Positions 20,424 to 49,493 of a stretch of DNA of 64,000 nt are shown piece by piece. Made by a program: the position numbers and the translations under genes. The notes below the pieces were generated by a model. The model was not told where the DNA came from. It was given only the letters and a program-made list of their open reading frames with translations, and made no database searches. The number at the start of each line of letters is the position of its first letter. Position 1 is the stretch's first letter. This stretch comes from Betaproteobacteria bacterium. GTDB lineage: Bacteria > Pseudomonadota > Gammaproteobacteria > Burkholderiales > Thiobacillaceae. Location of the stretch: NCBI GenBank assembly GCA_020061585.1, contig JAGUXX010000201.1:4575-68574 (forward strand), read 5' to 3'.

Positions 20424-23400
20424 TCAAGGCAGCCATGCTCGCGCCCAGACATCCAGATGGTCTTCCAGCATCCAGTTGCGCTCGACATGGTCGCGCAATG
20501 CATCGCCTTGCTTGGCCAGCGCATCCAAATCAGCCACGTGGGAGCGGACGGCATCAATCCAGTCCTTGTAGCGGTTCTTCACCCGAGTTACCGGAAAATC
20601 GCCGCGATACGGGGTTATGTCGGAACAAATCACCGGCCAACCAAGAATGCCGTATTCCAGGAGCCGCAAATGGCTCTTGGCATGGTTGAACGGTACATCT
20701 TCGAGCGGCGCCAGAGCCAGATCGAGATTCAAACTGGCGAGACGAGCCGGGTACGCCTCAACAGTGACCGAAGCCATGAATTCGACGTGTTGACGCACCC
20801 CTTGCGGGCAAAGTCCCATGAACACCCATTCAATTTCATCCCTGGTCGCCAGCACCACATCGCGGATCAGGGCCAGATCACCATCATGCGAGACACTGCC
20901 GGCCCAGCCAACGCGCGGTTTTCGCCCTTGACCGCGCTTCGAGGTGATATCGCCCCAGACGGCCCGCTCCAGATAGTTCGGGACGACCCGGATATCCGGG
21001 TTGAAGCCGCGATACTGCTCGGCGAGGTAATCGGTGGCGACGACAAACCGGTCGCACAGGCCGAGCGCCTTGCGTAAACGCTTGTTGAGACCTTTGACAT
21101 CGACGTTCTTGCGCAATTGATTGTTCAGTTGCACATTGGTGATCAGATCATCGAGCTCATAGACGCGCAGAGCCTGGGTATGGCGGGAATATTCCTCCAT
21201 CACCTCGATCTGCGACCAACTGATCTGTCGTTGCATGATCAAGGTATCCGGCGACAGGCGCTCAAGCTCCGGAATACTCAGATGCACCAGGGTGTCCCAG
21301 CCCTGGACCAGTCCGGCGCTTGTCAACGCGCGCAGCGGAGCGATGATGCGGTATTCGCCGCAGCCGTTGCGGTCTCCCGGGTGCGCCAGGACTCGCGGCA
21401 AGGGACGTACCTCCGGGTCCTGAAGCAGCCAAGGGGCGATCTCGATATCGAATGGATCGCCCGACAATGTCAGATTGCGGTTATAGGCCGGATCAAAGGC
21501 GATGCGCCTGCCCCAGCGTGAGAACATGACGCGCTCGGCCGGGGTCGATTTGTGCAATGCGTTGCTGTTGACGGCCAAAGCCTTGCCCTGGTCGTCGGGC
21601 TCGGCCGGCGGTGGCGTCATATGTTCCTGCAGCAAAACCGCATAGGGCGTCCATACGACACGTCTTTCCGCCCGCCATGCCTTGAGGCAGTAGTCGACAT
21701 CGCTGTAGCCGCCGGCGAGGTCGGTTTCATCGAAACCGCCTAGCTCATCGAACAGTTCTTTCTCCGTCAGCATGCAAGTTGCCGACACAGCGGATGGATT
21801 GTTCGGCGCCTGGAGTTGACCAAAGTAGCCCAGAGCATCATGCGGCGCATGCAAATCATGCAGCCCGGCTGGGCTGCCGCCCAACCCCAGGATGTAGCCG
21901 GCGAAGGAAATCTTGCCGTCAAGGCCGACGGTCTTGGCCCCGACCACGCCAACATCGGCCTGTACAACGTAGCCCAGCATCTCGTCTAGCCAGTCTCGAC
22001 GAAACGGGGCGATGGCGTCGGACAGGAACAGCAGATATTGTCCGCGCGCCGCTCTGGCGCCGGCGTTGATCAAGGCCGGCAGATTCGCGCCTCGCGGCTG
22101 AGTGATCACTTGTATGGCATCGTTATTCATGCCTCGCAGGCTGCCGAGGAAGGACCGGGTATCCGCATCGTCGCTGTCCTGATCCACAACGATAATCTGC
22201 CATTTCTTGTGATCGGTATTTTCGACGATGGCGCCGACGCAGCGTTGCAAGTAGGAACCGCCGTTCAGGGTGGGGATGATTATCGAGACGGTTTCTTCAC
22301 CGCTTACCCGATAACGGACGTGGAAGGTGCCGACGGGGAAATCGTTTGCCTCGATGTCGACCGCCAGCTTCAGGCGGTCGCAGTGAGCGGCCAACGCAGT
22401 TTTCCGGAGATCGATGATTTCCTCGTCGGACAACTGGTTTTGACCACTATCCGCCGTCCGGTGATAGAGCACGTCGGCTATATGGCCGAACCCCCGAGCG
22501 CCGACGGCTTCGAAAGCACGCAAGGTCAGGTCGTACAGCTCGATGCCCTCGAAAGCTTGGTTCATCCCGGCCAGACGCTCCAGCAAGTCACGCCGAAACA
22601 GGAGACCGGCGCCCAGTGCGTATGGCGCCGAACGAAGCATTTCGATCGAGAAATCCAGCTTGAAATAGGGATGCTCGGTTTCGCCTGTCCCGCTCAGATT
22701 ATCCTCATCCGGGTAGACCACTTCCCATTCAGGATGCCTGCCGATACTTTCCGCCAAGGTGCGCAGGGCGTGGGGCGCCAGGCAATCGCCAGCGGCCATG
22801 ATCGCGAACCAGTCGAAATTTCCGTCCCGAATGACACGATTGAGGGAGTCGCAGAAACCCTTGCTGGTCAAGGTCAGCCAGCGCAACTCTTCGGTATCGA
22901 TGAATCCAGGCGGCGCCGGAGTGCGCGACAGTATGCTGACCGTCCAGCGAGAGTATGTCTGCCCAGCGATCGATTCCAGCGTCCGCGCCAAGGTATCGAC
23001 TTGGTCATCCGGCAAGGAAATGACCAGGTGGAATTTCGGATGGGGTTGCCGCCATTCCGGATTTTCATCAAGCGGAGCGGACGCATCCCGCTCGGAAGCA
23101 CGGGAGGACTTCCACAGTTGGTAGCGGACATCGGCTGGCGACGTTACCGACTGCGTCGACTTCAGTTTGCTGGCCATGACCTCTCGGACGTGGCTGGGCA
23201 AGCGCGCAGCGGTTACTTCCAGGAAGCCCTTGACAAAATCGAAGCCATGTTGATCTCCACGAGCCCAAACTTCGCGACATCTGGCCTGGGTATGATCAAT
23301 CAATGCCTCGATGTGCTGCCAGGAATATTGCTGCTGCTGATCGATTCTCGCCACGGCGTCGCCCAGACTGGAGCGCGCCTTGATCAACGCGTCCGGCTCG

Positions 23401-24155
23401 TGCGCCAACGCGATCCCCCCCTCGGCCAGATGCGGATCATCCGCCTTGGGATACCAATAATCGGTAGCAACCAGCAAGACCGGGCAACCGCAGGCAAGCG
23501 CCTCGGTGATGATGGCCGATGGCTCGTAACAATACAGCGCCTCGGCGCCGCGCAGGATGGACGCGATTTCTTCCGGCGGCCTGGGAATGTCTTGGCAAAG
23601 GCTGGTCTGCGACGCATGCTCCGGCCGCACCTTGCCACCAAAAGCAAGGTATTTGTGGGCATAGAAGCATCCACCATGACGCTTGCCATCATCGGGGTTG
23701 TCGAGGTTATTGAATATTCGAGTATCGACGCTCGGGATATTCAACGCACTGCCCTGCATGCCTTCCGGCAGGCACCAGATGTTGTAATAGTAGATCAGGT
23801 CATCTTTTGGGAACGTCGTATCGCCGCCAAGATGACCGGGACGGTTGAGCAACCAGCGCGCGGTCACCGGGGTCGCAAGCGGGCTTCCGGAAATCACCTC
23901 CGGATACAGAGCAATCGGGAGGCGTCCAGTCTGATAATGATTGCTGACGATTTCCTGCGTCAGACGCGGCGTTCGAAGGTATCCAGAGACAACTTTGGCG
24001 TTGACCAAATAGGCTTCCATGCCGAGTTCGTTCAGCGCGTGGCACAGGTAATGCAGGCATCGAATCCCGGCGGAGGTATGCCGGTAATCCGCCGAATAAA
24101 TATAATAGGGCGATCGGGTCGCCCGAAACAGACTGAGTTTATGTCCTGGATTCAA
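20424..24155 (-). CDS. Multi-domain glycosyltransferase (1243 aa): N-terminal GT-like domain, two GT2 domains, C-terminal GT-B (GT1/GT4-like) domain
   Basis: First GT2 signature: FHLVISLPDDQ...SIAGQTYSRWTV...AAGDCL. Second GT2 signature: VSIIIPTLNGGSYLQRCVGAIVENT...VVDQDSDD...LFLSDAI. The C-terminus has the GT-B motif KSHLRLLEYGILGWPVICSD. The start codon is TTG (the only candidate). Confidence 0.8.
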   Translation of the reverse strand: MNPGHKLSLFRATRSPYYIYSADYRHTSAGIRCLHYLCHALNELGMEAYLVNAKVVSGYLRTPRLTQEIVSNHYQTGRLPIALYPEVISGSPLATPVTARWLLNRPGHLGGDTTFPKDDLIYYYNIWCLPEGMQGSALNIPSVDTRIFNNLDNPDDGKRHGGCFYAHKYLAFGGKVRPEHASQTSLCQDIPRPPEEIASILRGAEALYCYEPSAIITEALACGCPVLLVATDYWYPKADDPHLAEGGIALAHEPDALIKARSSLGDAVARIDQQQQYSWQHIEALIDHTQARCREVWARGDQHGFDFVKGFLEVTAARLPSHVREVMASKLKSTQSVTSPADVRYQLWKSSRASERDASAPLDENPEWRQPHPKFHLVISLPDDQVDTLARTLESIAGQTYSRWTVSILSRTPAPPGFIDTEELRWLTLTSKGFCDSLNRVIRDGNFDWFAIMAAGDCLAPHALRTLAESIGRHPEWEVVYPDEDNLSGTGETEHPYFKLDFSIEMLRSAPYALGAGLLFRRDLLERLAGMNQAFEGIELYDLTLRAFEAVGARGFGHIADVLYHRTADSGQNQLSDEEIIDLRKTALAAHCDRLKLAVDIEANDFPVGTFHVRYRVSGEETVSIIIPTLNGGSYLQRCVGAIVENTDHKKWQIIVVDQDSDDADTRSFLGSLRGMNNDAIQVITQPRGANLPALINAGARAARGQYLLFLSDAIAPFRRDWLDEMLGYVVQADVGVVGAKTVGLDGKISFAGYILGLGGSPAGLHDLHAPHDALGYFGQLQAPNNPSAVSATCMLTEKELFDELGGFDETDLAGGYSDVDYCLKAWRAERRVVWTPYAVLLQEHMTPPPAEPDDQGKALAVNSNALHKSTPAERVMFSRWGRRIAFDPAYNRNLTLSGDPFDIEIAPWLLQDPEVRPLPRVLAHPGDRNGCGEYRIIAPLRALTSAGLVQGWDTLVHLSIPELERLSPDTLIMQRQISWSQIEVMEEYSRHTQALRVYELDDLITNVQLNNQLRKNVDVKGLNKRLRKALGLCDRFVVATDYLAEQYRGFNPDIRVVPNYLERAVWGDITSKRGQGRKPRVGWAGSVSHDGDLALIRDVVLATRDEIEWVFMGLCPQGVRQHVEFMASVTVEAYPARLASLNLDLALAPLEDVPFNHAKSHLRLLEYGILGWPVICSDITPYRGDFPVTRVKNRYKDWIDAVRSHVADLDALAKQGDALRDHVERNWMLEDHLDVWARAWLP

Positions 24156-24209: not shown

Positions 24210-25670
24210 TCAACCGACATACACCAAAACTTGCGTTTTGGCATCGGCATATTTTGCGATCTCGTTCACAATATCGTTCTTGTGAAATACCGACGTCACC
24301 AAAATAACATCCGGAGCAAGTTCGGAAATCATCTTGTAGGAATAAACCTGATGGCCGGATACCGATTTTCCTTGAACCGAGCCACTGCGATCGAGAAAAC
24401 CGATCATGGTGCCCCTGCCGACATCCGGATCGGAGAGGATCTCGACAGAAAGCGGTGTCGCCGGGGCGATCATGACACGCTTGCCGGCCAGTGACCAGGC
24501 GCTATCGCCCTCCATGGTCCCCGCTTTGACTCTCAGCGGCCCGGTCGCAAATAACGTGTGCTCGCTCGCCGCTGGCTCGTCACCGTTGCGGAAATCTTGC
24601 AGGTGCAAGAGCGGATCGCCGACTTTGTACTCCGGTTCCAGCAACTTGATTCTGTCCAGAACCTGTTGCATCAGATTGCGGCCATTCTGAATCACGACCG
24701 AAAGGAAAGATTCCGTGAAATGAACAGCAGTCAGGCCATGTCTTTTCAACAAAAGATAGGTCTTGGCATACGCATCGATATGTTCGGAATAATCGTAAAC
24801 ACCGCGCTCAAACTGATGTTTATACTTGTCGGCCAGCGGAAAAAAATCGAATCCTAGATAAATTTTCTGCGGACGGATTGCCAGCATCGAATAGACAAAA
24901 CCAGCCACATCGTCCTCGCCGCAGTTGCCGTCGGAAAATATGTATTTCACCGCAAGCATGCCGCGACCCTGGCTGCCCGCCACTGAATAACGGGCCAAAT
25001 TTTCGATCACTTTCAAAAACTTGTCGCTTTTCTTGATTTTCCGGTATGTGGAGGGCGTACCGGCATCAAGCGAAACAATCAGCCATGAAATGGTGCCGTC
25101 AGCCAAGGCATCGAAGATCGATTGCCGGTACCTGAGGCCATTCGAATAGAGGCGCACACGGATGGCGCGCGACTTGAAATAATCAAGATATCGATCCAGA
25201 TCCTTGAGCAGGCTCGGCTCGCCACCGTTGAAATCGACGCAGGAATCCCAATCCACCACCTCCGGGGCAAAACGCTCAAGAATCGACAAGGCATCATATC
25301 GTGCATTCTTGAAATTATCCGCCTGAGTAAATCCACAGAAGCTGCAGCGCAAATTGCATGTACTGAAGTGAGCCAGGTCGATGAAGCCAAGGTTTTCAAA
25401 ACCAACATCCTTGAATTTTTTGTGTTCGACTTTCAGGCACTTCTTGCAACTGATATCGCTATGGTCATCGTTGAGTTTCTGGAACAGTTCCTTGCGTTTG
25501 TCGACGATCATTTCCCGGGTAATTTCCAGGCCTTCGGCCTCATCCACGGTCCAATAGAACGGTGAAACCATCACACTGAAACAACATGCACGGATGCCAT
25601 CCGGCCCCAGCCTCAGGCCGCTTTCGATTCGAGAGCATGTCTTCACGACATCGTCGGCAGCGAATTTCAT
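24210..25670 (-). CDS. Radical SAM enzyme with a C-terminal Rossmann-like (putative NDP-sugar-binding) module
   Basis: CX3CX2C motif (STCNLRCSFCGF) and GGEPSL. The C-terminal segment GKRVMIAPA...IGFLDRSGSVQGKSVSGHQVYS...PDVILVTSVFHKNDIVNEI resembles the C-terminal domain of NDP-hexose C-methyltransferases. The gene is visibly richer in AT than its neighbours. Confidence 0.8.
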   Translation of the reverse strand: MKFAADDVVKTCSRIESGLRLGPDGIRACCFSVMVSPFYWTVDEAEGLEITREMIVDKRKELFQKLNDDHSDISCKKCLKVEHKKFKDVGFENLGFIDLAHFSTCNLRCSFCGFTQADNFKNARYDALSILERFAPEVVDWDSCVDFNGGEPSLLKDLDRYLDYFKSRAIRVRLYSNGLRYRQSIFDALADGTISWLIVSLDAGTPSTYRKIKKSDKFLKVIENLARYSVAGSQGRGMLAVKYIFSDGNCGEDDVAGFVYSMLAIRPQKIYLGFDFFPLADKYKHQFERGVYDYSEHIDAYAKTYLLLKRHGLTAVHFTESFLSVVIQNGRNLMQQVLDRIKLLEPEYKVGDPLLHLQDFRNGDEPAASEHTLFATGPLRVKAGTMEGDSAWSLAGKRVMIAPATPLSVEILSDPDVGRGTMIGFLDRSGSVQGKSVSGHQVYSYKMISELAPDVILVTSVFHKNDIVNEIAKYADAKTQVLVYVG

Positions 25671-25704
25671 GGCGCCATCATCTCCTCAATGGACAATATT
25701 TCTA

Positions 25705-27183
25705 TTAATGAATCGCGCATGTATCGTTGCTTTCGGTAACTGTCGAACCAGGCTGACAATCTTCGACGAACATGTCCGACGACCCATGCAGGTCAGCCAA
25801 CTCCTTCCACGAGATCATCGGCATGGCGGTCGAGTCGAGACGTAACGAAATCATTTTCTTGATACCGTCTTCATGATCCCGCTCGCTGCTCAGGATAATC
25901 GCATCGATCGATTTCTCAAGCGCTCCAAGTTGTGCGTGGGGCAAGACCGGCACGCCGAAAACACAGGCGCCGATCCGAGCCGGGCTGGAATCGACACACG
26001 CCACGACTTCGACACCGGACCGCAAGGCATCCAGCACCAGCAGATAGGCCGTAAACATGCTGCCGACGATCACCACCCGTTCAAGGCCTTCATTGCGCGA
26101 GAAAAGCGTCCGTCCCTGGTGGATGGCGCGCAGCCAGGCCCGGTAAGCACGTCGCGCCCCACCCCTGGCCTCGACCAGATCCAGCCCGACCAAAGTCTCC
26201 GCGGAAAGCGTTGTGTCCAATCCCAACCCTGCCAGCAATATCTCGAAAGGCAGCGCCGCATCGACCGCTCTGGATTCCACCTGAACAGACCTGACCCAGC
26301 TCGATCTGAGGCTGCTTACTGCGTCCAGCAATATCTTGTCGGAAGGCTGCCGGGGATTTTTGAACAGGAAATCCTGGGCTTTGAAGCGTGCCGAGAAACC
26401 ATGGATCGATGCGGCGTATCGCTGCAGATTGGCATCGCGGCGACTCTTCTTGAGCAAATGTTGCGCGACCTCGACCAATTCGACCAAAGGAGCGCTCTGG
26501 TCGACATTCCTGGACTCCTGTCCGACATGTTGCCGATATTTGAGCAAGGGATCACCCAGCATGGCGACGGGGTGTCGCATATTGAGCAGGAACAGCACGC
26601 CGATGTCGCCACTCGAAACATATCTCGGTTGCGCTGCCCTGACGATCGGGCCGCTGCGCTTTACCAGCGCATCACGCCTGAACATGCAGGTCGGGGTCGG
26701 GAACCACAGCTTTTCGTCCAGATAGGTCGGGATATAGTCGCCTGCGCTAAAAACCCGATCTTCTTCAAAGTCATATAGTTTCGGCTGTATGGTCTGCCCG
26801 ATATCGTCTATCAGACCAACATTGGTTGCGACGCAAGCCAGTTCGGGATGCGCGGCAAAAAAATGCATCTGGCGCTCGACCATCGTCGGCTCCAGAACAT
26901 CGTCATCGTGCGTTGCCAGAAAATACTCTCCCCGGCTCATCCACAGCCCACGATTGAAATTGAAGCTCGCATTGCATCCCGGGGGCTGCCTGACGTAAGT
27001 CAATCTCGAATCCTTATAGCCAAGGACCAGATCCGCCGTCTGGTCCTGGCTATGGTTATCAAGAACCAATAGCTCGAAATCGGAATAGGTTTGCGACAGG
27101 ATGGAATCCAGAGTTTCGCGCAGATAGCCGCTATTTCCTCTGTTATAAGTCAGCAAGGCGATTGTGAGCTTGACGTGTGCCAT
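25705..27183 (-). CDS. GT2-family glycosyltransferase fused to a C-terminal Rossmann-like module (paralog B)
   Basis: The start is taken at MAHVKLTIALLTYNRGNSGYLRETLDSILSQTYSDFELLVLDNHS (GT2), with THDDD. C-terminal module: [45 protein letters not shown]...[13 protein letters not shown]. Confidence 0.8.
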   Translation of the reverse strand: MAHVKLTIALLTYNRGNSGYLRETLDSILSQTYSDFELLVLDNHSQDQTADLVLGYKDSRLTYVRQPPGCNASFNFNRGLWMSRGEYFLATHDDDVLEPTMVERQMHFFAAHPELACVATNVGLIDDIGQTIQPKLYDFEEDRVFSAGDYIPTYLDEKLWFPTPTCMFRRDALVKRSGPIVRAAQPRYVSSGDIGVLFLLNMRHPVAMLGDPLLKYRQHVGQESRNVDQSAPLVELVEVAQHLLKKSRRDANLQRYAASIHGFSARFKAQDFLFKNPRQPSDKILLDAVSSLRSSWVRSVQVESRAVDAALPFEILLAGLGLDTTLSAETLVGLDLVEARGGARRAYRAWLRAIHQGRTLFSRNEGLERVVIVGSMFTAYLLVLDALRSGVEVVACVDSSPARIGACVFGVPVLPHAQLGALEKSIDAIILSSERDHEDGIKKMISLRLDSTAMPMISWKELADLHGSSDMFVEDCQPGSTVTESNDTCAIH

Positions 27184-27220
27184 GTGTATCGTGACCCGAA
27201 GTTTGACGCCTGCCACACCT

Positions 27221-28606
27221 TCATGGTGCGGCAACCAAGGACTTCCAAGATAAAACATTGAGATACGCCTTGGTCTGCTCGCGCAACACCCTTCGCAGAC
27301 TTTCCTCGTGATCCCGTTCGCTGCTCAACACCACGGCATCAATACCGACGGCACATTCGTCGAACCGGGCAATGTCGACAACCGGCACACCGAACACCTC
27401 ATGCCCGACCCGCGCCGGACTCGAATCCAGGCAACAGATCACCTCGACGCCGCACCGTTGCGCCGCGAGGACAATGAGGTAGGCGGTGAACATGCTGCCC
27501 ATGATCGCGATCCGCCGCAGTCCCGGAGCATCAAAGAACAGCGACCGACCACATTGCAGCATTCGCACCCATTGCCGGTAGGCGGCCTGGCTGCCACCGC
27601 GCGGCGGGATGATACATAGTCCTTCCATGGCTGTGGCCGGAATCGTCATCCCGTAACCCATCTCGGCCATCAGGACCTCAAACGGCAGCACCACATCCAT
27701 GCCCCGCCGTTCCGGTGGAACCGCCTTCTCCCAACGCCGCTTCAGTGCGCGCAAGCGCCTGGCAAGCGCCACGCCCGACATGCGGAAAAGACTATCCTGG
27801 GACTGGTAACGCACTGTGAAGGCAGCCACCAGGGGTAGCAGCGACAGGAGTTGCCGATTCTCCCGCCGCGCGCGCAGCAGCTTGCCCGCGTAATCCGCGA
27901 GGGCTACAAGTGGAGCGCTCTGATCGACGTTGCGAGACTCCTGGCCGCCATGCTGGCGATAACGCAGCAAGGGCTCGGCCAATATGGCGACGTCGCCCCT
28001 GACATTCAGCCTGAACAGCCCGGCAATATCTCCGCTTGGGAAATAGGTGGCCCCTGTTTTTTCAGTGAATCCGCGCCGCCTGGAAACAACAGCATCGCGC
28101 CTGAACAGCAGTGTCGGCGTCGGGAACCACAGTTTTTCCTCAAAATAAGACTTGATATATTCGCCGGGATAGAAATAGCGGATGTCCTCCATTTCATACA
28201 AGCGCTGCTGCTGCCGCAGACCCCGGGTGTCGATGAGGCTGACATTGGTCGCCAGGCAAAGCAAGTCGGGATGAGCCGCGACGCAGGCCATCTGCCGCTC
28301 CAGCATGCGAGGCTCCATCACATCGTCATCGTGCGTGGTCAGCAAGTATCTGCCCCGACTCATCCGGAACGCCGCCCTGATACTGTCGGCCGGGGTTCCG
28401 CCCGGGGGCAGGCGGACATAAGTCAACCGCGCGTCCTTATAGGAGAGCACAAGTCTGGCCGTTTCGTCGGTGCTATGGTTGTCGATGACGAGCAGTTCGA
28501 AATCCGTATAGGTCTGAGCCAGGATGGCGTCCAGGGCAGTGCGCAAATAACCGCTCGCGGCACGGTTGTAGGTCTGTAGCGAGATGCTGACCAGCGGCGG
28601 CGTCAT
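27221..28606 (-). CDS. GT2-family glycosyltransferase fused to a C-terminal Rossmann-like module (paralog A)
   Basis: [40 protein letters not shown], with THDDD. C-terminal module: [45 protein letters not shown]...[13 protein letters not shown]. It is collinear with the downstream paralog (roughly half of positions identical by eye). Confidence 0.8.
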
Positions 28607-29742
28607 CGGGCGAACGCACGGATAGCCGCAATGACATGATCTTGAGCGGCATCATCGAGGTGCGGCCACATGGGCAAGCTGAGCACCTCATCCGCCAAGC
28701 TTTCCGCGACGGGGAAAGCGCCGCGCTGGTGCCCCAGATCAAGGTAGGCTGCCTGCAGGTGGGGCGGAATCGGGTAGTGCGTCTGCGTCTGGACCCCTCG
28801 GTTCGCCAACCACTCGGTCAGTGTCGCCCTTTGAGTCGTTCGAATAACGTAGAGATGCCAGACATGGTCATTGCCCGCCGGCACTTCCGGCAGGACAAGA
28901 GCGGTGTCCGCCAGCCCCTGTCTGTAGCGGTCCGCCAGCCTTTTTCTACTTGCATTCCAGCCATCCAGATAGCGCAGTTTCACCCCAAGCACGGCGGCCT
29001 GGATCGGATCCAGGCGACTGTTGAAACCGCGCTCCTCATGGACATATTTCCGGCACGAACCATAGTTGCGCAAACGTCGCAGCCGTTCCGCCAGCTCGGG
29101 GTCGTTACAGGTCACCGCGCCGCCGTCGCCCATTGCGCCCAGATTCTTGGTCGGGTAGAAACTCCAAGCGACCGCATCGCCATGCGCGCCAATCCGGCGG
29201 TCTCCGTAATACGCCCCATGGCACTGGGCGGCATCCTCAAGCACCTTCAAGCCATGACGCTTTGCCAAGGCGATGATCGCATCCATATCGGCGGGCATAC
29301 CGTAGAGATGCACAGCTAATATTGCCTTGGTCCGCTCCGTCAACGCGGCTTCAATCCGCAGCGGATCGATCAGAAAGCCGGGCAGTGATGGTTCGACAGG
29401 TACCGGGATAGCGCCACAGTGACTGACGGCCAACCAGGTCGCGATAAAGGTGTGGGATGGAACGATCACCTCATCGCCGGGCCCGATTCCCATTGCCCGC
29501 AAAGCCAGATGCAGCGCATCGAGACCGCTGCCCACGCCGATGCAGTGGGTCGCCCCGGTATAGACGGCAAACTCACGTTCGAATGTCTCCACTTCCTCGC
29601 CGAGGATGAAGCGCGCGGATTCGACTACACGCCTGATGGCGTTGTCGACGGCTCCGACCAGCTCCGAATCGGCACAAGCCAAATTGACAAAGGGCACGTC
29701 CAGGCAGCATCCAGACTTCATGTCGTCAGGCCCGATAACCAT
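28603..29742 (-). CDS. DegT/DnrJ/EryC1/StrS-family PLP-dependent sugar aminotransferase
   Basis: [44 protein letters not shown], and [16 protein letters not shown] (the PLP Lys). The start could be 29742 or 29721. Confidence 0.88.
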
Positions 29743-30490
29743 ACTGCTGCATCAGGGGTGCGCAAATTTCATGGACGATCGATTTGTAAACCTGGTCCAG
29801 ATCAGTCAGTCTCCTTGTCAAATCGACCGGACGCCCATACTTGGGCGAATACCAAGGATCGTTCACCTCGAAGTCATCAACGGTCAATCCAGCCTCGGAA
29901 AAACCGGACACGGACAGGAACGCGGCGAGCCCCCCCATTTCAGCCGGGTCCGACAGGTTTTCATATTTTACCCAGTACAGTCTTCCCGAACGGTAGAGCG
30001 CATCCAAACCTTCGTATGTATCAGCGTATTCGCGCGCAATTGCCCTCGCCTTGTCGGGTCCGAACCTCTCGTTCGGGCATTCACGCTCGAAGACCTGCTG
30101 CCGTGATCTGACGACGTCGAAAGGATGGCGCAGGACCACGACATAACGCGCCTGTCCGCTCAACAGCTCGTCCACGAGAGGTAAAACCGGCGTCAACAAT
30201 GGGTCTTTGAGGGCCAGCACCGAGGGTCGACCGAGATGGTCGTACAGGTGCGCCAACGACGTCGACACCAATGAACGCATGTGTTCACGAAACGCATCTC
30301 GGGATGGAAAGAGAAATTGCGTATGGACTTCCCATTTGATCAGACCAACCCGATACACCTTGAGAAGCGCCGTCAGGTAGCTTGACTCACCGGCATAATC
30401 GTTGATGTCCCGGGAAGTGCACATCAGCGAATAAACCAGGGTTGTCCCTGACCGGGGTGCCCCGCCGACGAAAACAATAGGAATATTCAA
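29726..30490 (-). CDS. Sulfotransferase-family protein (PAPS-dependent)
   Basis: 5'-PSB loop [15 protein letters not shown] at the N-terminus and a 3'-PB-like motif [13 protein letters not shown]. It is soluble, 254 aa. Confidence 0.75.
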
Positions 30491-30535
30491 AATAATCCGC
30501 GCTCAATGAATAATTCGAAACCGAACACAAACCGA

Positions 30536-32059
30536 CTAACCGACTTCACCAAAAGCATCTACAACCAACAAATCATCCGAAACCGACATGACATGACTTC
30601 TAATCTCGTCGAAATGCCGACTGGCCGTAACCAAAACCACTTTGGCAGCAACATCTGAAATCATGGCTGGGCTTGAAATCACATAACCCCAAAAGGATTG
30701 GCCTTGCTTGGACACATCACCATCGACAAGCAATGCAATATCGCAGTTTGACAGAGTCGTAAATCTGAACAGCCAATTCAATTCATTCCCTGCCCCGTAG
30801 ACAATGATCCGCGCGCCTAATTGATGCAACTTGAGCAGCACTCTATTAGCTTGGGCACATTTGGATAATTTTTCTTCAGAATCATCAAAATATTCTGTCT
30901 TTAGGACCGACTGTGCCCGGGCATGAAGGTGATCTTTGACATGGTTTTTCAAATATCTGTCTGGCAACTCATCCAGCCAATCGAAGAAGCCCTGTTCCTT
31001 GAAATCCAGATCGCATTCCATGGACCTGGATTCGTAAGGAATGTCCCACCCGTAAATTTTTGAATCGTAAAGATGCTCTGACTTACGCTGTAGAAATCGG
31101 CATTCGGCGCAAGGCGCATGCGGGGTTCCGTTTCTGATCGACTCCTTAAGTCGCCTGACCTCCTGGCCCTCTAGAATATTGGACAACTTCGTCTCAAAGA
31201 CATTACCGACCACCAGTTTGGCGCCGCAACACGGCCTCACGTCACCGTTTGCATTGATGATCAAAGGCCCGTGTTTTTCGAGTTGCGGGCATTCGAACGC
31301 AGCACCCATGCTTTCCGGCACGCTGTCGCCCACGAAAAAGTCTGGGGGACGGTTGAATGGGACACTTAATTTATCAGCCAATGTCATTGCCTTGGCGAGA
31401 ATCATGTTCGCCAACTTTGGGTAGTGAAACAGGGACTGCTTGCTCATCCCCTGTACTCCGGCGAATTCCATGTGATCACAAAAAACTGCGGCCCCAATTT
31501 TATGTGCGAATCGCACCACATCGAGCAAGGAAAAAATATTCGATTTCATCAACACCACACCCAACGATATGTTGATGTGCTTTACACCGATTTCTTGCAG
31601 GCCATGGCGCAAATTCTCAATATTTTCCATCACACTGGAAAGGAAACCAGGCCTTCTTATATACGCATATTCGATATGATTTGTCGTGTCTATGGAAATC
31701 GTGATATCTACCCTGGACACATTTTCCAGAAAAGAGAGACTACCCCCATCCAGCAACGAGCCATTCGTGACCTGTGAAAAACCAATGTTACTGTTCCTTC
31801 TCAGGAAGTTGCCCATTAATTTCGTCTTGCCTGCCACTTCCGGGTCAGCCAGAAACTCGCCGAACCCGGTCAAGCTGACTGCAGAAGCAAAATCGGTCAC
31901 CTCCTCCAGCATTCTGGAAAACAATGCGTCCGACATGCATTCCCTATTTGCAAGATAAGCCTTTGCGGATTCCTTGTTGCTCCAAGAACACATTACACAG
32001 CGGTAATTACACCGTTCGCTTGTCTGAAATACAACGACCGGCCTGTAAGTTTCGTTCAT
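30536..32059 (-). CDS. Radical SAM enzyme with a partial SPASM/twitch motif and a C-terminal Rossmann-like module
   Basis: CX3CX2C (SERCNYRCVMCSW). Auxiliary-cluster-like motifs CPQLEKHGPLIINANGDVRPCC (CX14GX4C) and CAEC. C-terminal module: GARIIVYGAGNELNWL...IALLVDGDVSKQGQSFWGYVISSP...KVVLVTASRHFDEI. The gene is AT-rich relative to the window. Confidence 0.8.
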   Translation of the reverse strand: MNETYRPVVVFQTSERCNYRCVMCSWSNKESAKAYLANRECMSDALFSRMLEEVTDFASAVSLTGFGEFLADPEVAGKTKLMGNFLRRNSNIGFSQVTNGSLLDGGSLSFLENVSRVDITISIDTTNHIEYAYIRRPGFLSSVMENIENLRHGLQEIGVKHINISLGVVLMKSNIFSLLDVVRFAHKIGAAVFCDHMEFAGVQGMSKQSLFHYPKLANMILAKAMTLADKLSVPFNRPPDFFVGDSVPESMGAAFECPQLEKHGPLIINANGDVRPCCGAKLVVGNVFETKLSNILEGQEVRRLKESIRNGTPHAPCAECRFLQRKSEHLYDSKIYGWDIPYESRSMECDLDFKEQGFFDWLDELPDRYLKNHVKDHLHARAQSVLKTEYFDDSEEKLSKCAQANRVLLKLHQLGARIIVYGAGNELNWLFRFTTLSNCDIALLVDGDVSKQGQSFWGYVISSPAMISDVAAKVVLVTASRHFDEIRSHVMSVSDDLLVVDAFGEVG

Positions 32060-40420: not shown

Positions 40421-40439
40421 GGGCGTAGCTTCCGGTAAA

Positions 40440-41003
40440 TCAATGGTCTATCGGTCGATCAGGCATCCGCCCATCGATACAGGGGCGGTATATCTCGTGA
40501 ACGGCGATCAGGTCTGGCGGGCAACGGTCGTGCCATTGCCATTGGCCGTTTAACGGCATCCCGCCGGAATACTTGAGCAATTCGCTCGGCTGACTTGACA
40601 GGCGGCAGTTGAACAACAACGAAATGAAATGACCGCGCACATCCCGGTGCGGGGCCATGATCTCGCGCAGTTCCGCGGGCGCCGCATCGTGCTCGACGAT
40701 GCAGCCCAGTTCGTTCCAGGCCACGGCGGCGATCCGCTCGGCGAAAGTCTCCTTGAACCGAACAATACCACCCGGAATGTGCCAACCCGCTCCGTAGAAT
40801 TCGTCCTGGCGCCAAGTCAGCAGCGTTGCGCCGCTGTCGTTGCGGATAAGCAGATCCACATTCACCAGCGGCGTAAGCCGACTGACCAGGAAGAACACCT
40901 CCTGGGGCAGGCCATCGCGGGCCGACCCCAGCGCGGCGTCGAGGCCGGCAACGTGGTCGGCCACCGCCCTGCCCGGCCGTTCACTATCACGAAACCCGCT
41001 CAA
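40440..41003 (-). CDS. Nudix hydrolase (GDP-mannose mannosyl hydrolase-like, degenerate Nudix box)
   Basis: WHIPGGIVRFKETFAERIAAVAWNELG resembles the modified Nudix box of NudD/Gmm-type sugar-nucleotide hydrolases. Confidence 0.65.
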   Translation of the reverse strand: MSGFRDSERPGRAVADHVAGLDAALGSARDGLPQEVFFLVSRLTPLVNVDLLIRNDSGATLLTWRQDEFYGAGWHIPGGIVRFKETFAERIAAVAWNELGCIVEHDAAPAELREIMAPHRDVRGHFISLLFNCRLSSQPSELLKYSGGMPLNGQWQWHDRCPPDLIAVHEIYRPCIDGRMPDRPIDH

Positions 41004-45547: not shown

Positions 45548-46234
45548 TCATCCCGCGCTCGCGTCAGCGAAAAAATCCCCCAGGTTCTTGAGATCGTCCG
45601 GCAAGGCAATCTTGTGCCAAGGCAGAGCCAGACCCCAGGCATCCGTATCGCCGCCATAACCCCAGGTCACCGCGACGAAGCTCATGCCATTGGCCTGCGC
45701 GGCCACGCCATCCTCACGGGTATCGCCGATATAGACCGTTCTTTCCGGATCGATCGATTGCTCCTGAAGCAGGCGTTGCAGCATGTCCGCCTTGCTCGCG
45801 TATCCCACCGGAATGCCGTCCTGACTGTAAACCGACTTGAAATAGCGCTCCCAGCCTTGGGCCTGGAGTATTTTACGAGTCGGCAGTAAGCGTTTGTTCG
45901 TTGCCAGATGCAAGCTTTGGCGATTCTCGTACAACTGCGCCAGCACGTCCGATACGCCCGGAAAGGGATGCGTGATCAAAGCCACCTCGGCGTCATAGCG
46001 ATGTTTGAAATCTTTCGCCAGAGCATCGAGCGCGACGACATCGTCAACTCCGGCGATCCTGGCCAGGGTCGCTTTCAACGGGGGACCGATCAGGTGGGGG
46101 CCGATGCTGACCACCGGCGCAAAACCAGCCTCCACCACCACCGCCTCAAGACATGCAAGTATCGCCGGCGCGGAGTCCACCAAGGTGCCGTCCAGGTCAA
46201 ACACCAACGCGTCGCAACGCCCCCCCGCCCTCAA
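45548..46234 (-). CDS. HAD-superfamily phosphatase (phosphoglycolate-phosphatase-like)
   Basis: [10 protein letters not shown] (DxDxT), LATNK, and [12 protein letters not shown]. The start is uncertain. TTG 46234 overlaps the rfbH stop (TTGA), and the track ORF's longer N-terminus overlaps rfbH. Confidence 0.75.
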
Positions 46235-49357: not shown

Positions 49358-49493
49358 AGAACTGCCCTGTGATCGAGGTATGGAATCTTGGCTAGCAGTC
49401 CACCTGGTGCTACGTTCGACATGCGTCCGCACGGCACAGGTCTGCGCACACGAAGATATTCGACGACATTGGCGCCGTCGGAGTAGCCGACTT

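What the first reader, a model, noticed from the sequence alone, without database searches (positions are those of the whole stretch)
24210..32059. One Rossmann-like (putative NDP-sugar-binding) module is fused to three different catalytic chassis: two radical SAM enzymes, two GT2 transferases and a C-methyltransferase
Five proteins of the island end with the same module of about 90-100 aa, with the pattern [R/K]-h-h-I-x-G-[A/S]-x ... h-x-x-h-h-D-x-x-x-x-[K/R]-x-G ... G-x-x-V ... D-x-h-I-L-x-S ... E/D-I. The rSAM at 24210..25670 reads GKRVMIAPA...IGFLDRSGSVQGKSVSGHQVYS...DVILVTSVFHKNDI. The rSAM at 30536..32059 reads GARIIVYGAGNE...IALLVDGDVSKQGQSFWGYVISS...KVVLVTASRHFDEI. The GT2 at 25705..27183 reads RVVIVGSMF...VVACVDSSPARIGACVFGVPV...[12 protein letters not shown]. 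The GT2 at 27221..28606 reads RIAIMGSMF...[21 protein letters not shown]...[12 protein letters not shown]. The canonical TylCIII/TcaB9-type C-methyltransferase at 40987..42126 reads VAIWGAGHQ...VRYVVDSAPFKQNRYTAASHIPIV...AVIVMAASYSDEV. In the C-methyltransferase family, and in the NeuD/PglD N-terminal domain it resembles, this domain contacts the nucleotide-sugar. Radical SAM cores carrying such a domain would therefore be predicted to act directly on NDP-sugars. I do not recognise this architecture from characterised sugar-modifying rSAM enzymes (DesII, BtrN, AprD4, GenK). A GT2 carrying an extra NDP-sugar-binding domain is also unusual.
Basis: partly seen in the sequence, partly recalled or inferred. 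Interest (0 to 1): 0.8.

Follow-up and report, generated by a model that had tools for sequence, protein, structure and literature searches.

The report
Shared nucleotide-binding tail on five sugar-pathway enzymes
Five enzymes in a sugar-decorating gene island next to a flagellin gene (two radical SAM enzymes, two glycosyltransferases and a sugar C-methyltransferase) really do end in the same ancient ~95-residue Rossmann-like domain, which probably grips the nucleotide part of a CDP-linked sugar; this gives large uncharacterised enzyme families a testable substrate, but that role is inferred, not shown.

Summary
All five ORFs exist as described, and their last ~95 residues are homologous. Family profile comparisons give 91-98% probability for five of the six family pairs and 63% for rSAM1-CMT. 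Unrelated regions, SDR NAD-Rossmann, TPP-M and B12-binding domains score <=5%, apart from one 11-column 17.7% match.

The domain is the C-terminal half of Pfam PF08484 (sugar C-methyltransferase C-terminal domain). The CMT and rSAM2 pass the Pfam cutoff, and 24 of 31 rSAM1-family tails hit it. The GT2 tails are a divergent branch closer to the Rex/CoA_binding type, linked to PF08484 through bridging sequences. AlphaFold models (pLDDT 90-95) are five-stranded Rossmann-like folds. Their nearest PDB neighbours are Rex, a CapD-like N-domain, PglD-type N-domains and the WbaP accessory domain. TcaB9 is not in the top 50.

The module is portable. In related islands it is also fused to B12-radical SAM, FkbM and Fer4_12-type radical SAM enzymes, at either terminus.

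The island starts from CDP-glucose (RfbF/G/H equivalogs), so the predicted ligand is a CDP handle. Nucleotide-sugar binding is plausible but unproven; dimerisation or allosteric nucleotide sensing, as in WbaP, is the main rival. The architectures are not one-offs: the rSAM1 type has >=271 clusters, the tailed GT2 >=152, and the two are a conserved adjacent pair. I found no characterised member.

The parts
24210..25670 (-). rSAM1: 486-aa radical SAM enzyme. It has an N-terminal Cys-rich region (C12, C29, C30, C75, C78), a CX3CX2C core at C105/109/112 and a C-terminal module.
   Evidence: - ORF.
- Radical_SAM 60.3 bits.
- Family of >=271 full-length clusters.
- Conserved Cys.
- Nearest PDB sequence is BlsE 7VOB, E 5e-6, over the core only.
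24213..24491 (-). Tail module of rSAM1 (residues 394-486)
   Evidence: - PF08484 18.3 bits for the tail alone; 24 of 31 family tails hit PF08484.
- hhalign 98% to the rSAM2 tail, 96.5% to the GT2 tail and 62.7% to the CMT tail.
- AF2 pLDDT 90.1, five-strand Rossmann-like fold.
25705..27183 (-). GT2a: family-2 glycosyltransferase (492 aa from the second ATG) with a DDD motif and a C-terminal module
   Evidence: - Glycos_transf_2 76.8 bits.
- 51% identical to GT2b.
- The longest ORF starts at 27258, but homologues align from M at 27183.
25789..26085 (-). Tail module of GT2a (residues 367-465)
   Evidence: - GT2-tail HMM 172 bits.
- Hit by the rSAM1-tail HMM at E 5e-4.
27221..28606 (-). GT2b: family-2 glycosyltransferase (461 aa) with a C-terminal module
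   Evidence: - Glycos_transf_2 78.7 bits.
- >=152 full-length relatives of 455-500 aa.
27224..27520 (-). Tail module of GT2b (residues 363-461)
   Evidence: - AF2 pLDDT 94.7.
- Foldseek neighbours Rex, 3NKL, VioB, PerB, WbaP and FkbM 2PY6.
- hhalign 94.9% to the CMT tail profile.
- Profile hits B. subtilis Rex at E 4e-4.
30536..32059 (-). rSAM2: 507-aa radical SAM/SPASM enzyme with a C-terminal module
   Evidence: - SPASM 38.1 bits, Radical_SAM 26.9 bits, PF08484 28.4 bits.
- Rare family.
30539..30820 (-). Tail module of rSAM2 (residues 414-507)
   Evidence: - PF08484 above the gathering cutoff.
- hhalign 90.8% to the CMT tail, 98% to the rSAM1 tail and 95.5% to the GT2 tail.
40987..42126 (-). 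CMT: TcaB9-type sugar C-methyltransferase. It has a Zn-ribbon (C6, C9, C50, C53), a class I methyltransferase domain and a PF08484 domain.
   Evidence: - TcaB9 E 2.5e-16 over residues 6-353.
- Pfam Methyltransf_13, Methyltransf_23 and Methyltransf_14.
- 80 relatives at 48-66% identity.
41005..41283 (-). Tail module of the CMT (residues 282-374)
   Evidence: - PF08484 44.2 bits.
- The most conserved stretch is YVVDSAPFKQxKxTPAxHIPIV.
46231..49432 (-). CDP-sugar entry genes: RfbF (48587-49432), CDP-glucose 4,6-dehydratase (47541-48605) and RfbH (46231-47772)
   Evidence: NCBIfam equivalogs above cutoff, at 461.6, 476.6 and 731 bits.
38528..45462 (-). Conserved cassette around the CMT: NeuB-cupin, ThDP enzyme, CMT, NUDIX and rSAM3 (which has no module)
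   Evidence: - Pfam.
- Neighbour counts in 80 CMT-centred loci: rSAM3-like 55, TPP 48, NUDIX 44, NeuB-cupin 28.
51025..51843 (-). Flagellin gene directly upstream of the island; the presumed glycosylation target
   Evidence: Flagellin_N and Flagellin_C.
20424..24155 (-). 1243-aa protein with a central GT2 domain, last gene of the island. It is a candidate protein glycosyltransferase and carries no module.
   Evidence: - Pfam.
- No tail-HMM hit.

Best explanation
The five proteins carry one ancient, portable, ~95-residue Rossmann-like nucleotide-binding domain. Its layout is beta1, a variable Gly/Ala loop, helix, beta2 ending in an invariant Asp, a [KR]-x-G loop, beta3, beta4 followed by an acidic/His loop, then beta5.

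It is the same domain that forms the C-terminal half of PF08484 in TcaB9-type sugar C-methyltransferases. It is related to PF22674 of FkbM methyltransferases and, more distantly, to the Rex/CoA_binding, CapD/PglF-N, WbaP-DUF and PglD-N domains.

**Proposed mechanism**
- The island lies directly downstream of a flagellin gene and builds its sugar from CDP-glucose through RfbF, RfbG and RfbH.
- The module most likely binds the nucleotide (CDP) handle of the nucleotide-linked sugar.
- It thereby presents the sugar to whichever catalytic domain it is fused to: the class I methyltransferase, the two radical SAM cores and the GT-A domains.
- The radical SAM enzymes are therefore predicted to act directly on CDP-sugars.
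- The tailed GT2s may hold a second nucleotide-sugar as acceptor or effector.

**Shown**
- Homology of the five tails, their fold, and their portability across at least seven enzyme types and both termini.
- The conserved polar residues sit at the C-terminal strand ends, which is the canonical Rossmann ligand crevice.
- The pathway context is CDP-sugar.

**Inferred**
- That the ligand is the NDP/CDP handle.
- That binding serves substrate presentation rather than regulation.
For: **Homology**
- hhalign gives 91-98% for five of six family pairs. Controls: non-tail regions <=4% except one 11-column 17.7% match; other Rossmann-like domains <=5%.
- PF08484 hits:
  - CMT and rSAM2 above the cutoff.
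  - 24 of 31 rSAM1-family tails.
  - rSAM2-family tails such as P0252 at 30.3 bits.
- P0252 is also hit by the GT2-tail HMM (6e-10), the CMT-tail HMM (1.5e-5) and the rSAM1-tail HMM, so it bridges the families.

**Fold**
- Two independent AF2 models, pLDDT 94.7 and 90.1, have the same strand order.
- They return the same PDB neighbour list, and every neighbour is a nucleotide-binding domain. Several sit in nucleotide-sugar enzymes: 3NKL, VioB, PerB and WbaP.

**Ligand-site signature**
- Invariant residues fall directly after beta1, beta2, beta4 and beta5.
  - GT2: G31/S32, D55/S56, R60/G62, S89/E91, W115/K116.
  - rSAM1: P24, D48/R49, K56, H84.

**Portability**
- The same module is found on four further enzyme types:
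  - B12-binding radical SAM enzymes, at the C-terminus (97% to the rSAM2 tail).
  - Fer4_12/radical SAM enzymes, at the N-terminus.
  - FkbM methyltransferases, at the N-terminus.
  - A Methyltransf_23 enzyme.
- One rSAM2-core relative carries it at the N-terminus, and close relatives lack it.

**Context**
- RfbF, RfbG and RfbH are equivalogs above cutoff.
- The CMT sits in a conserved ThDP-enzyme/CMT/NUDIX/rSAM cassette.
- The rSAM1 core is nearest to BlsE and to viperin-like models, which are enzymes of cytidine-containing substrates.

**From my own recollection, not checked here**
- In the TcaB9 structures (Bruender et al. 2010) the C-terminal domain carries most of the dTDP contacts.
Against: - No binding data exist for any of these tails.
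- TcaB9 is absent from the top 50 Foldseek hits of both models. The rSAM1-tail profile finds no C-methyltransferase among PDB sequences.
- The best structural and sequence match of the GT2 tail is Rex, an NAD(H) sensor.
- The loop after beta1 differs between families (GAG, GS, APA), which would be odd for one shared ligand.
- The related WbaP domain is regulatory and dimerising, not part of the active site.
- A GT-A domain already binds its own nucleotide-sugar donor, so the GT2 tail needs a different rationale.
- I could not retrieve the TcaB9 papers, so the dTDP-contact claim rests on memory.
- The viperin and BlsE similarity covers only the SAM-binding half of the core.
Confidence: 0.5

Rival explanations
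1. The tail is a dimerisation and allosteric nucleotide-sensing domain. It binds a free nucleotide by-product such as CMP or CDP, or a pathway end-product, and tunes the attached enzyme. The WbaP accessory domain does this with UMP, and Rex does it with NADH. On this reading the tail does not position the substrate.
For: - Rex is the top structural hit for both tail models and the top PDB sequence hit for the GT2 tail.
- WbaP 8T53 is a fold neighbour.
- Its domain mediates dimerisation and binds UMP/UDP/UTP, and UMP inhibits WbaP with an IC50 of 4.1 uM (PMC10942596).
- This explains naturally why a GT2, which already has a donor site, carries the domain.
- It also explains why the domain works at either terminus and on many enzyme types.
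Against: - In the one structurally characterised chassis (TcaB9-type CMT), PF08484 is part of the catalytic unit rather than a detachable regulator (my recollection of the TcaB9 papers, not checked here).
- The tail is found in 80 of 80 CMT relatives.
- The radical SAM tails are closer to the CMT type than to Rex.
Confidence: 0.25
2. The tails are protein-protein docking modules. They assemble the pathway enzymes into homo- or hetero-oligomers, for example an rSAM1-GT2 complex, so that labile CDP-keto-sugar intermediates are channelled.
For: - rSAM1-type and tailed GT2 genes are adjacent in the window and in L082 and L083, and share contigs in many hits.
- Several module-bearing enzymes co-occur in one island. 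There are five in the window and at least seven in L081.
- Rex and WbaP use this fold as a dimer interface.
Against: - The invariant residues are polar or charged and lie in the canonical ligand crevice, not on a hydrophobic surface patch.
- The TcaB9-type CMT is reported as a monomer (my recollection).
- No co-variation or multimer modelling could be run here.
Confidence: 0.1
3. The tail binds a redox or acyl cofactor (NAD(P)H, CoA or a flavin), as its Pfam neighbours CoA_binding, GFO_IDH_MocA and Rex suggest. It might, for example, feed electrons to the radical SAM cluster.
For: - Weak Pfam hits to CoA_binding (14 of 34 GT2 tails) and to GFO_IDH_MocA.
- Top fold hits bind NAD(H).
- MtmC, a TcaB9-family enzyme, uses NADPH as well as SAM (PMC10269268).
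Against: - The GxGxxG dinucleotide loop is degenerate or absent. GT2 keeps one Gly and rSAM1 has APA.
- Deep SDR NAD-Rossmann profiles do not match the tails (<=4.7%).
- A methyltransferase or a GT2 has no evident need for NAD(P)H.
- All Pfam hits to these families are below their cutoffs.
Confidence: 0.08
4. The resemblance is generic Rossmann-fold convergence, or a chance motif, with no common ancestry or shared role.
For: - Cross-family identity is only about 12-21%, and pairwise BLAST is mostly non-significant.
- The rSAM1-CMT hhalign probability is only 62.7%.
- One tail HMM weakly hit an SDR (L081 8804-9976, E 1e-3).
Against: - Profile comparisons are specific. They give 91-98% among tails. 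Three other deep Rossmann-like profiles score <=5%; the class I MT domain of the CMT scores <=2%, apart from one 11-column match at 17.7%.
- Tail HMMs pick out exactly the predicted C-termini among 338 ORFs.
- Bridging sequences are hit by several tail HMMs at 1e-5 to 1e-17.
- The two models return identical neighbour lists.
Confidence: 0.03

Closest known systems
C-terminal domain of TcaB9/KijD1/MtmC-type NDP-sugar C-methyltransferases (Pfam PF08484, Methyltransf_14)
   Same: - The window's CMT is a full member.
- rSAM2 passes the Pfam cutoff, and most rSAM1-family tails hit the model over positions ~45-160.
- All share the motif: beta1 then a G/A loop; an h-h-D at the end of beta2; [KR]-x-G; an acidic loop after beta4.
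   Different: - Here the domain is detached from the Zn-ribbon and class I methyltransferase chassis. It is fused to radical SAM or GT-A cores instead.
- Only the C-terminal ~95-115 of the 160 model positions are present.
- The GT2 tails do not reach the model on their own.
- TcaB9 is not among the top 50 Foldseek hits.
N-terminal domain of FkbM-family methyltransferases (Pfam PF22674 C2185-like_N; PDB 2PY6)
   Same: - PF22674 is flagged on rSAM2 relatives and on some rSAM1 relatives in the precomputed annotations.
- An FkbM enzyme in a related island carries the module at its N-terminus and is hit by three tail HMMs.
- 2PY6 is a fold hit.
   Different: - The position is N-terminal and the catalytic partner differs.
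- My own Pfam scans did not return PF22674 for any window protein at E<=1.
- The function of the domain in FkbM enzymes is unknown to me.
Rex NAD(H)-sensing domain / CoA_binding (PF02629)
   Same: - Best structural neighbour of both tail models (TM on query 0.55-0.65).
- Best PDB sequence hit of the GT2 tail profile (E 4e-4).
- It fits the same sequence motif.
   Different: - Rex has an intact GxGxxG loop, binds NAD(H) and is fused to a winged-helix DNA-binding domain.
- The tails lack the full glycine loop.
- All Pfam hits are below the cutoff.
Accessory domain of large phosphoglycosyl transferases (WbaP DUF, PF13727) and N-domain of PglF/CapD-type dehydratases (3NKL)
   Same: - It is a small Rossmann-like accessory domain attached to glycoconjugate-pathway enzymes.
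- It is a fold neighbour of the tails.
- It is shown to bind uridine nucleotides and UDP-sugar.
   Different: - In WbaP it is internal and membrane-proximal, forms the dimer interface and acts allosterically.
- Sequence similarity to the tails is marginal: 1 of 34 GT2 tails hit PF13727 at E 0.079.
N-terminal domain of PglD/NeuD/PerB/VioB sugar N-acetyltransferases
   Same: - It is a small Rossmann-like domain that helps bind the nucleotide of an NDP-sugar (my own knowledge).
- VioB 7TXP and PerB 4EAA are fold hits at E 3e-3 to 3e-2. PerB is a weak sequence hit.
   Different: - No PglD_N Pfam hit for any tail.
- It is fused to a left-handed beta-helix and is always N-terminal.
RiPP recognition element (RRE), as a functional analogy only
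   Same: It is one small portable binding domain fused to many unrelated tailoring enzymes, including radical SAM enzymes, so that they all recognise a common handle on the substrate (my own knowledge).
   Different: - The fold is unrelated (winged helix) and the handle is a leader peptide, not a nucleotide.
- No homology is implied.

Membership tests
Pfam PF08484 (Methyltransf_14, C-methyltransferase C-terminal domain) | Score at or above the curated gathering cutoff of 23.5 bits: CMT and rSAM2 | tested here: met
   CMT 44.2 bits (residues 260-355). rSAM2 28.4 bits (residues 380-490)..
Pfam PF08484 (Methyltransf_14, C-methyltransferase C-terminal domain) | Score at or above 23.5 bits: rSAM1 | tested here: inconclusive
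   - Full protein 14.2 bits (E 0.038). Tail alone 18.3 bits (E 0.0021).
- 24 of 31 family tails hit the model, best E 5.9e-6.
- hhalign to the CMT tail profile gives 62.7%, but 98% to the rSAM2 tail.
Pfam PF08484 (Methyltransf_14, C-methyltransferase C-terminal domain) | Score at or above 23.5 bits: GT2a and GT2b | tested here: not met
   - No hit at E<=1. Only 3 of 34 family tails hit, best E 0.14.
- Homology is supported only at profile-profile level (94.9% to the CMT tail) and through the bridging sequence P0252.
TcaB9/TylCIII-type NDP-sugar C-methyltransferase (applies to the CMT only) | Three-domain architecture: four-Cys Zn-ribbon, class I SAM methyltransferase domain and PF08484 domain | tested here: met
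   - Methyltransf_13 27.2 bits (below its 31.3 cutoff, but C6, C9, C50 and C53 are present), Methyltransf_23 54 bits, Methyltransf_14 44.2 bits.
- TcaB9 E 2.5e-16 over residues 6-353.
TcaB9/TylCIII-type NDP-sugar C-methyltransferase (applies to the CMT only) | C-methylation of an NDP-4-keto-sugar | not testable with these tools
   This needs an enzyme assay. The context (RfbF/G/H) suggests a CDP-4-keto-3,6-dideoxyhexose substrate.
Radical SAM superfamily (rSAM1, rSAM2) | CX3CX2C cluster motif and a Radical_SAM domain | tested here: met
   - rSAM1: C105/109/112, 60.3 bits.
- rSAM2: C17/21/24, 26.9 bits (just below the 29.5 cutoff), plus SPASM at 38.1 bits.
-.
Characterised sugar or nucleoside radical SAM enzymes (BlsE, viperin, BtrN, DesII, MoaA) | Score above the NCBIfam equivalog cutoff, or full-length similarity to a solved member | tested here: not met
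   - The best NCBIfam scores are far below the cutoffs. rSAM1 scores 44.2 bits against a cutoff of 180 (viperin_w_prok). rSAM2 scores 78.1 against 380.
- PDB hits cover only the SAM-binding half of the core: BlsE E 5e-6 and BtrN E 0.055.
Glycosyltransferase family 2 (GT2a, GT2b) | GT-A domain (PF00535) with a DxD motif | tested here: met
   76.8 and 78.7 bits. DDD at residue 93 in both..
NeuD/PglD N-terminal domain (Pfam PglD_N) | Match to the Pfam model | tested here: not met
   - No hit in any scan.
- Only fold-level similarity to VioB and PerB at E 3e-3 to 3e-2, plus a weak PerB sequence hit at E 0.74.
CoA_binding / Rex-type NAD(H) domain (PF02629) | Score at or above the cutoff of 22.3 bits, and an intact GxGxxG loop | tested here: not met
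   - GT2b tail 13.9 bits. 14 of 34 family tails hit at best E 2.6e-4.
- The glycine loop is reduced to a single Gly in the GT2 tails and is absent in rSAM1.
Nucleotide-sugar-binding function of the module | Direct binding of an NDP/CDP-sugar by the tail | not testable with these tools
   Only indirect evidence is available: conserved polar residues at the strand C-termini and the pathway context.

The most novel reading that the evidence does not exclude
The module is a general nucleotide-handle recognition domain for sugar tailoring, the carbohydrate counterpart of the RiPP recognition element. It recruits at least seven kinds of catalyst onto one CDP/NDP-sugar scaffold:
- three classes of radical SAM enzyme, including cobalamin-dependent ones;
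- FkbM methyltransferases;
- class I methyltransferases;
- TcaB9-type methyltransferases;
- GT2 glycosyltransferases.

On this reading, the widespread adjacent rSAM1/tailed-GT2 pair performs a so far undescribed radical modification coupled to glycosyl transfer on a nucleotide-linked acceptor. That would mean an oligosaccharide or branched sugar is built while still attached to the nucleotide, before transfer to flagellin.
Probability: 0.3. Interest if true: 0.75.

Novelty: new variant of a known kind. Interest (0 to 1): 0.55.

Why it matters
Radical SAM enzymes known to work on nucleotide-linked sugars are few, and their substrates are hard to guess from sequence. A shared, recognisable handle-binding domain would help in three ways.

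- **It gives a concrete substrate class.** CDP/NDP-sugars would be the predicted substrates of several large uncharacterised families:
  - the rSAM1 type, with >=271 clusters;
  - its conserved tailed-GT2 partner, with >=152 clusters;
  - B12-dependent and Fer4_12-type radical SAM enzymes that carry the same module.
- **It gives a simple bioinformatic marker** for sugar-tailoring radical chemistry in the glycosylation islands of mostly uncultured bacteria.
- **It gives a portable domain** that might be used to retarget enzymes to nucleotide-sugars.

If the domain is instead regulatory or a docking unit, it would extend the WbaP-type nucleotide-sensing idea from membrane initiators to soluble tailoring enzymes.

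Tried and rejected
- **Pairwise BLAST of the tails.** It was too insensitive. Only rSAM1-rSAM2 and GT2a-GT2b were detected.
- **Exact-sequence context look-ups.** They failed for the window proteins and for P0004 and P0196. I used relatives instead.
- **TcaB9 as a structural top hit.** The rSAM1-tail profile also found no C-methyltransferase among PDB sequences.
- **NeuD/PglD N-domain membership.** There was no Pfam hit, so I kept it only as a fold neighbour.
- **The TcaB9/KijD1 structure papers.** They could not be retrieved. The claim that the domain contacts dTDP therefore rests on my memory.
- **Literature searches.** Searches for radical SAM in flagellin glycosylation, and for PF08484 and PF22674, returned nothing relevant.
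- **A defence-system reading.** PADLOC gives only partial viperin-like core matches. I rejected this because the context is sugar biosynthesis.
- **Recent intragenomic copying of one tail.** I rejected this because identities are low and each tail has the GC content of its own gene.
- **Generic Rossmann cross-talk.** I tested it with three deep control profiles and rejected it.
- **The organism.** It could not be named. The source is a 70,454-base contig held by NCBI and JGI.

Full report
**1. What is in the sequence**

| Protein | Coordinates | Length |
|---|---|---|
| rSAM1 | 24210-25670 | 486 aa |
| GT2a | 25705-27183 | 492 aa from the ATG that aligns with homologues; the longest ORF starts at 27258 |
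| GT2b | 27221-28606 | 461 aa |
| rSAM2 | 30536-32059 | 507 aa |
| CMT | 40987-42126 | 379 aa |

Pfam confirms the catalytic domains.
- rSAM1 has a Radical_SAM domain (60.3 bits) with CX3CX2C at C105/109/112.
- rSAM2 has Radical_SAM plus SPASM, with C17/21/24.
- Both GT2s have Glycos_transf_2 (77-79 bits) and a DDD motif.
- The CMT has the Zn-ribbon, class I methyltransferase and Methyltransf_14 trio. It aligns with TcaB9 over residues 6-353 (E 2.5e-16).
- A third radical SAM protein, rSAM3 (38528-40420), has no such tail.

**2. Is the shared tail real?**

Pairwise BLAST sees only rSAM1-rSAM2 (E 8e-5 over the tails) and the GT2a/GT2b paralogy (51% identity). I therefore built family profiles from four sets of relatives:
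- 120 GT2 relatives;
- 120 rSAM1 relatives;
- 3 rSAM2 relatives;
- 80 CMT relatives translated from genome loci.

HMM searches against all 338 window ORFs of at least 80 aa gave the following.
- The GT2-tail HMM's best non-self hits are the C-termini of rSAM2 (E 0.0087), CMT (0.14) and rSAM1 (0.15), all in register.
- The rSAM1-tail HMM returns rSAM2 (2.7e-4), GT2a (5.1e-4) and GT2b (0.026).

hhalign between tail profiles:

| Pair | Probability | Detail |
|---|---|---|
| GT2-rSAM1 | 96.5% | E 9e-10, 92 columns |
| GT2-rSAM2 | 95.5% | |
| rSAM1-rSAM2 | 98.0% | E 2e-13 |
| GT2-CMT | 94.9% | 106 columns |
| rSAM2-CMT | 90.8% | |
| rSAM1-CMT | 62.7% | |

Controls:
- Non-tail regions of the same families give <=4% over short stretches. 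The one exception is an 11-column match at 17.7%, between the rSAM1 tail and the methyltransferase domain of the CMT.
- Deep profiles of other Rossmann-like domains from the same loci give <=4.7%. These were the SDR epimerase N-domain, TPP_enzyme_M and the B12-binding domain.

The similarity is therefore specific, not generic Rossmann cross-talk.

Bridging sequences strengthen the case.
- Among rSAM2-core relatives from the exhaustive search, the tail of P0252 is hit by the GT2-tail HMM (6e-10), the CMT-tail HMM (1.5e-5) and the rSAM1-tail HMM (8e-7).
- P0252 scores 30.3 bits on PF08484.
- The tail of P0254 is hit by the rSAM1-tail HMM at 7e-17.

**3. What the module is**

*By sequence*
- It is the C-terminal ~95-115 positions of PF08484.
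- The CMT and rSAM2 pass the curated cutoff.
- rSAM1 itself is sub-threshold, but 24 of 31 family tails hit the model.
- The GT2 tails are a divergent branch. Only 3 of 34 touch PF08484, while 14 of 34 touch CoA_binding. Their profile finds the NAD(H) domain of B. subtilis Rex at E 4e-4 among PDB sequences.
- Precomputed annotations also flag PF22674 (C2185-like_N, the N-domain of FkbM methyltransferases) on rSAM2 relatives and on some rSAM1 relatives.

*By structure*
- AlphaFold models of the GT2b tail (pLDDT 94.7) and the rSAM1 tail (pLDDT 90.1) are five-stranded beta-alpha Rossmann-like domains.
- Both return the same PDB neighbours:
  - Rex NAD(H) domains (E 2-3e-4, TM on query 0.55-0.65);
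  - the CapD-like N-domain 3NKL (TM 0.58-0.66);
  - the VioB N-domain.
- The GT2b tail alone additionally returns the PerB N-domain, WbaP (8T53) and the FkbM protein 2PY6.
- TcaB9 is not in the top 50 for either model. The fold evidence therefore places the module in a broad group of small nucleotide-binding domains, not uniquely with TcaB9.

*Conservation*
- The invariant residues sit immediately after the strands.
  - GT2: G31/S32 after beta1, D55/S56 after beta2, R60/G62, S89/E91 after beta4, W115/K116 after beta5.
  - rSAM1: P24, D48/R49, K56, H84.
- This is the classical ligand crevice of a Rossmann fold, which argues for a bound ligand rather than a purely structural role.
- The loop after beta1 varies between families (GAG in CMT and rSAM2, GS in GT2, APA in rSAM1). 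The Asp at the end of beta2 and the [KR]-x-G loop are common to all, and to Rex.

**4. The module is portable**

Scanning 81 related loci with the tail HMMs, with Pfam confirmation, found the module on further enzyme types.
- At the C-terminus of B12-binding radical SAM enzymes of 615-670 aa (L063, L020, L056 and three in L081). hhalign to the tails gives 70-97%.
- At the N-terminus of a Fer4_12/Radical_SAM family of 410-434 aa (L039, L066, L073, L081).
- At the N-terminus of an FkbM methyltransferase (L081 15330-16595).
- On a Methyltransf_23 enzyme (L068).

Within the rSAM2 core family:
- 10 relatives carry the tail at the C-terminus;
- one, P0251, carries it at the N-terminus;
- close relatives such as P0246 and P0249 (39-40% identity) lack it.

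Each window tail has the GC content of its own gene, and cross-family identities are about 12-21%. These are old, independent fusions of one domain family, not recent copies.

**5. Abundance and context**

- The rSAM1 architecture is a large family, with at least 271 clusters at 90% identity, all about 480-520 aa.
- The tailed GT2 has at least 152 clusters.
- The rSAM2 architecture is rare. About 10 representatives in 1.84 billion carry the tail.
- rSAM1-type and tailed GT2 genes are adjacent in the window, in L082 and in L083. They share an island in L081, and the contig lengths in the two hit lists coincide repeatedly. They are a conserved pair.

The island runs from about 49.4 kb down to 20.4 kb, directly downstream of a lone flagellin gene (51025-51843) and between housekeeping genes.
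- Its entry enzymes are NCBIfam equivalogs above cutoff:
  - glucose-1-phosphate cytidylyltransferase;
  - CDP-glucose 4,6-dehydratase;
  - RfbH.
- The pathway therefore starts from CDP-glucose and passes through CDP-4-keto-(3,)6-deoxyhexoses.
- The CMT sits in a cassette that recurs within 3 kb of it in 80 loci from many phyla: rSAM3-like 55, ThDP enzyme 48, NUDIX 44, NeuB-cupin 28.
- That the glycan ends up on flagellin is inferred from adjacency only.

**6. How it most likely works**

My best explanation, at confidence about 0.5, is that the module binds the nucleotide (here CDP) handle of the nucleotide-linked sugar and presents the sugar to the fused catalytic domain. This predicts that rSAM1, rSAM2 and the B12- and Fer4_12-type relatives act directly on CDP/NDP-sugars.

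Support:
- homology to the C-methyltransferase domain;
- the ligand-crevice conservation;
- neighbours that are nucleotide binders, several of them in nucleotide-sugar enzymes;
- portability across tailoring enzymes that share only the pathway;
- the CDP-sugar context.

A weak additional hint is that the rSAM1 core is nearest to BlsE and to viperin-like models, both enzymes of cytidine-containing substrates. The match covers only the SAM-binding half of the core.

That the PF08484 domain carries the dTDP contacts in TcaB9 is my recollection of Bruender et al. 2010. I could not retrieve the paper.

Against the model:
- there are no binding data;
- TcaB9 is not a top fold hit;
- the beta1 loop varies between families;
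- a GT-A domain already binds its own donor.

The main rival, at about 0.25, is a WbaP/Rex-like role. In WbaP the related accessory domain forms the dimer interface and binds UMP/UDP/UTP, and UMP inhibits the enzyme at 4.1 uM (PMC10942596). This fits the GT2 tails particularly well. Lesser rivals are a docking module for a multi-enzyme complex (0.1), NAD(P)H or CoA binding (0.08) and chance (0.03).

**7. Comparison with known systems, and novelty**

- The CMT is an ordinary TcaB9-type enzyme.
- The domain itself is known (PF08484, and probably PF22674).
- Accessory Rossmann-like nucleotide-binding domains are also known in WbaP, PglF/CapD and PglD-type enzymes.
- What I could not find described is its fusion to radical SAM cores of several classes and to GT2, or the conserved rSAM1/tailed-GT2 pair.
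  - NCBIfam has no equivalog.
  - The best PDB matches cover only the core.
  - The literature searches were empty.
- I rate this a new variant of a known kind: a known domain in new and widespread architectures that give a testable substrate prediction.

Interest: 0.55.

Noticed in passing
window 38528-45462; loci L001-L080: The CMT belongs to a cassette conserved across many phyla, mostly in MAGs. Within +-3 kb of the CMT in 80 loci, an rSAM3-like radical SAM/SPASM gene occurs in 55, a ThDP (acetolactate-synthase-like, possibly YerE-like) enzyme in 48, a NUDIX gene in 44, a NeuB-cupin fusion in 28 and an epimerase in 23. The product of this cassette is unknown.
   Followed up: partly
window 38528-40420 (-): rSAM3 is 630 aa, whereas its relatives in other loci are about 340-370 aa. 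The extra ~300 C-terminal residues have no Pfam match and are not the module.
   Followed up: no
window 24210-25670 (-), residues 1-95: rSAM1 has an N-terminal region with five cysteines conserved across the family (C12, C29, C30, C75, C78), upstream of the CX3CX2C motif. It may be an auxiliary Fe-S or Zn site.
   Followed up: partly
window 24210-25670, 30536-32059, 32148-32837: rSAM1 (GC 0.507), rSAM2 (0.472) and the adjacent methyltransferase (0.478) have a much lower GC content than the rest of the island (0.55-0.67) and the window (0.591). This suggests a mosaic island with separately acquired genes.
   Followed up: partly
window 46231-47772 (-): The RfbH ORF is 513 aa, but the match to the 440-position RfbH model starts at residue 77, and the ORF overlaps the upstream dehydratase gene by 232 bases. 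The real start is probably further downstream.
   Followed up: no
window 43957-45462 (-): This is a NeuB-like synthase fused to SAF and cupin domains. It scores far below the NeuB and PseI equivalog cutoffs and sits in a CDP-hexose rather than a nonulosonic-acid context.
   Followed up: no
window 20424-24155 (-): This 1243-aa protein has only a central GT2 domain annotated (residues 623-843). Its large N- and C-terminal regions have no Pfam match. It is a candidate flagellin glycosyltransferase at the end of the island.
   Followed up: no
window 29726-30490 (-) and 34331-35260 (-): A sulfotransferase-family gene lies inside the island, hinting at a sulfated glycan. A 309-aa protein with no Pfam match has only a faint similarity to a beta-1,2-mannobiose phosphorylase model.
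   Followed up: no
window 51025-51843 (-) and flanks: The flagellin gene (272 aa) stands alone. No other flagellar genes are in the 64-kb window, and the flanks are pheST, metG, glnD, a TPR protein and dnaE.
   Followed up: partly
P0251 (475 aa; relative of the rSAM2 core): This protein has the same radical SAM/SPASM core as rSAM2, but with the module at the N-terminus (residues 34-116) instead of the C-terminus. It is a natural domain-order swap.
   Followed up: partly
L081 (GCA_040960315.1, contig JBFOMO010001022.1): A related island packs at least seven module-bearing enzymes: an rSAM1 homologue, three B12-radical SAM enzymes, an FkbM methyltransferase, an N-terminal-module radical SAM enzyme and a tailed GT2. 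The ThDP enzyme, NUDIX and radical SAM/SPASM genes are alongside them.
   Followed up: partly
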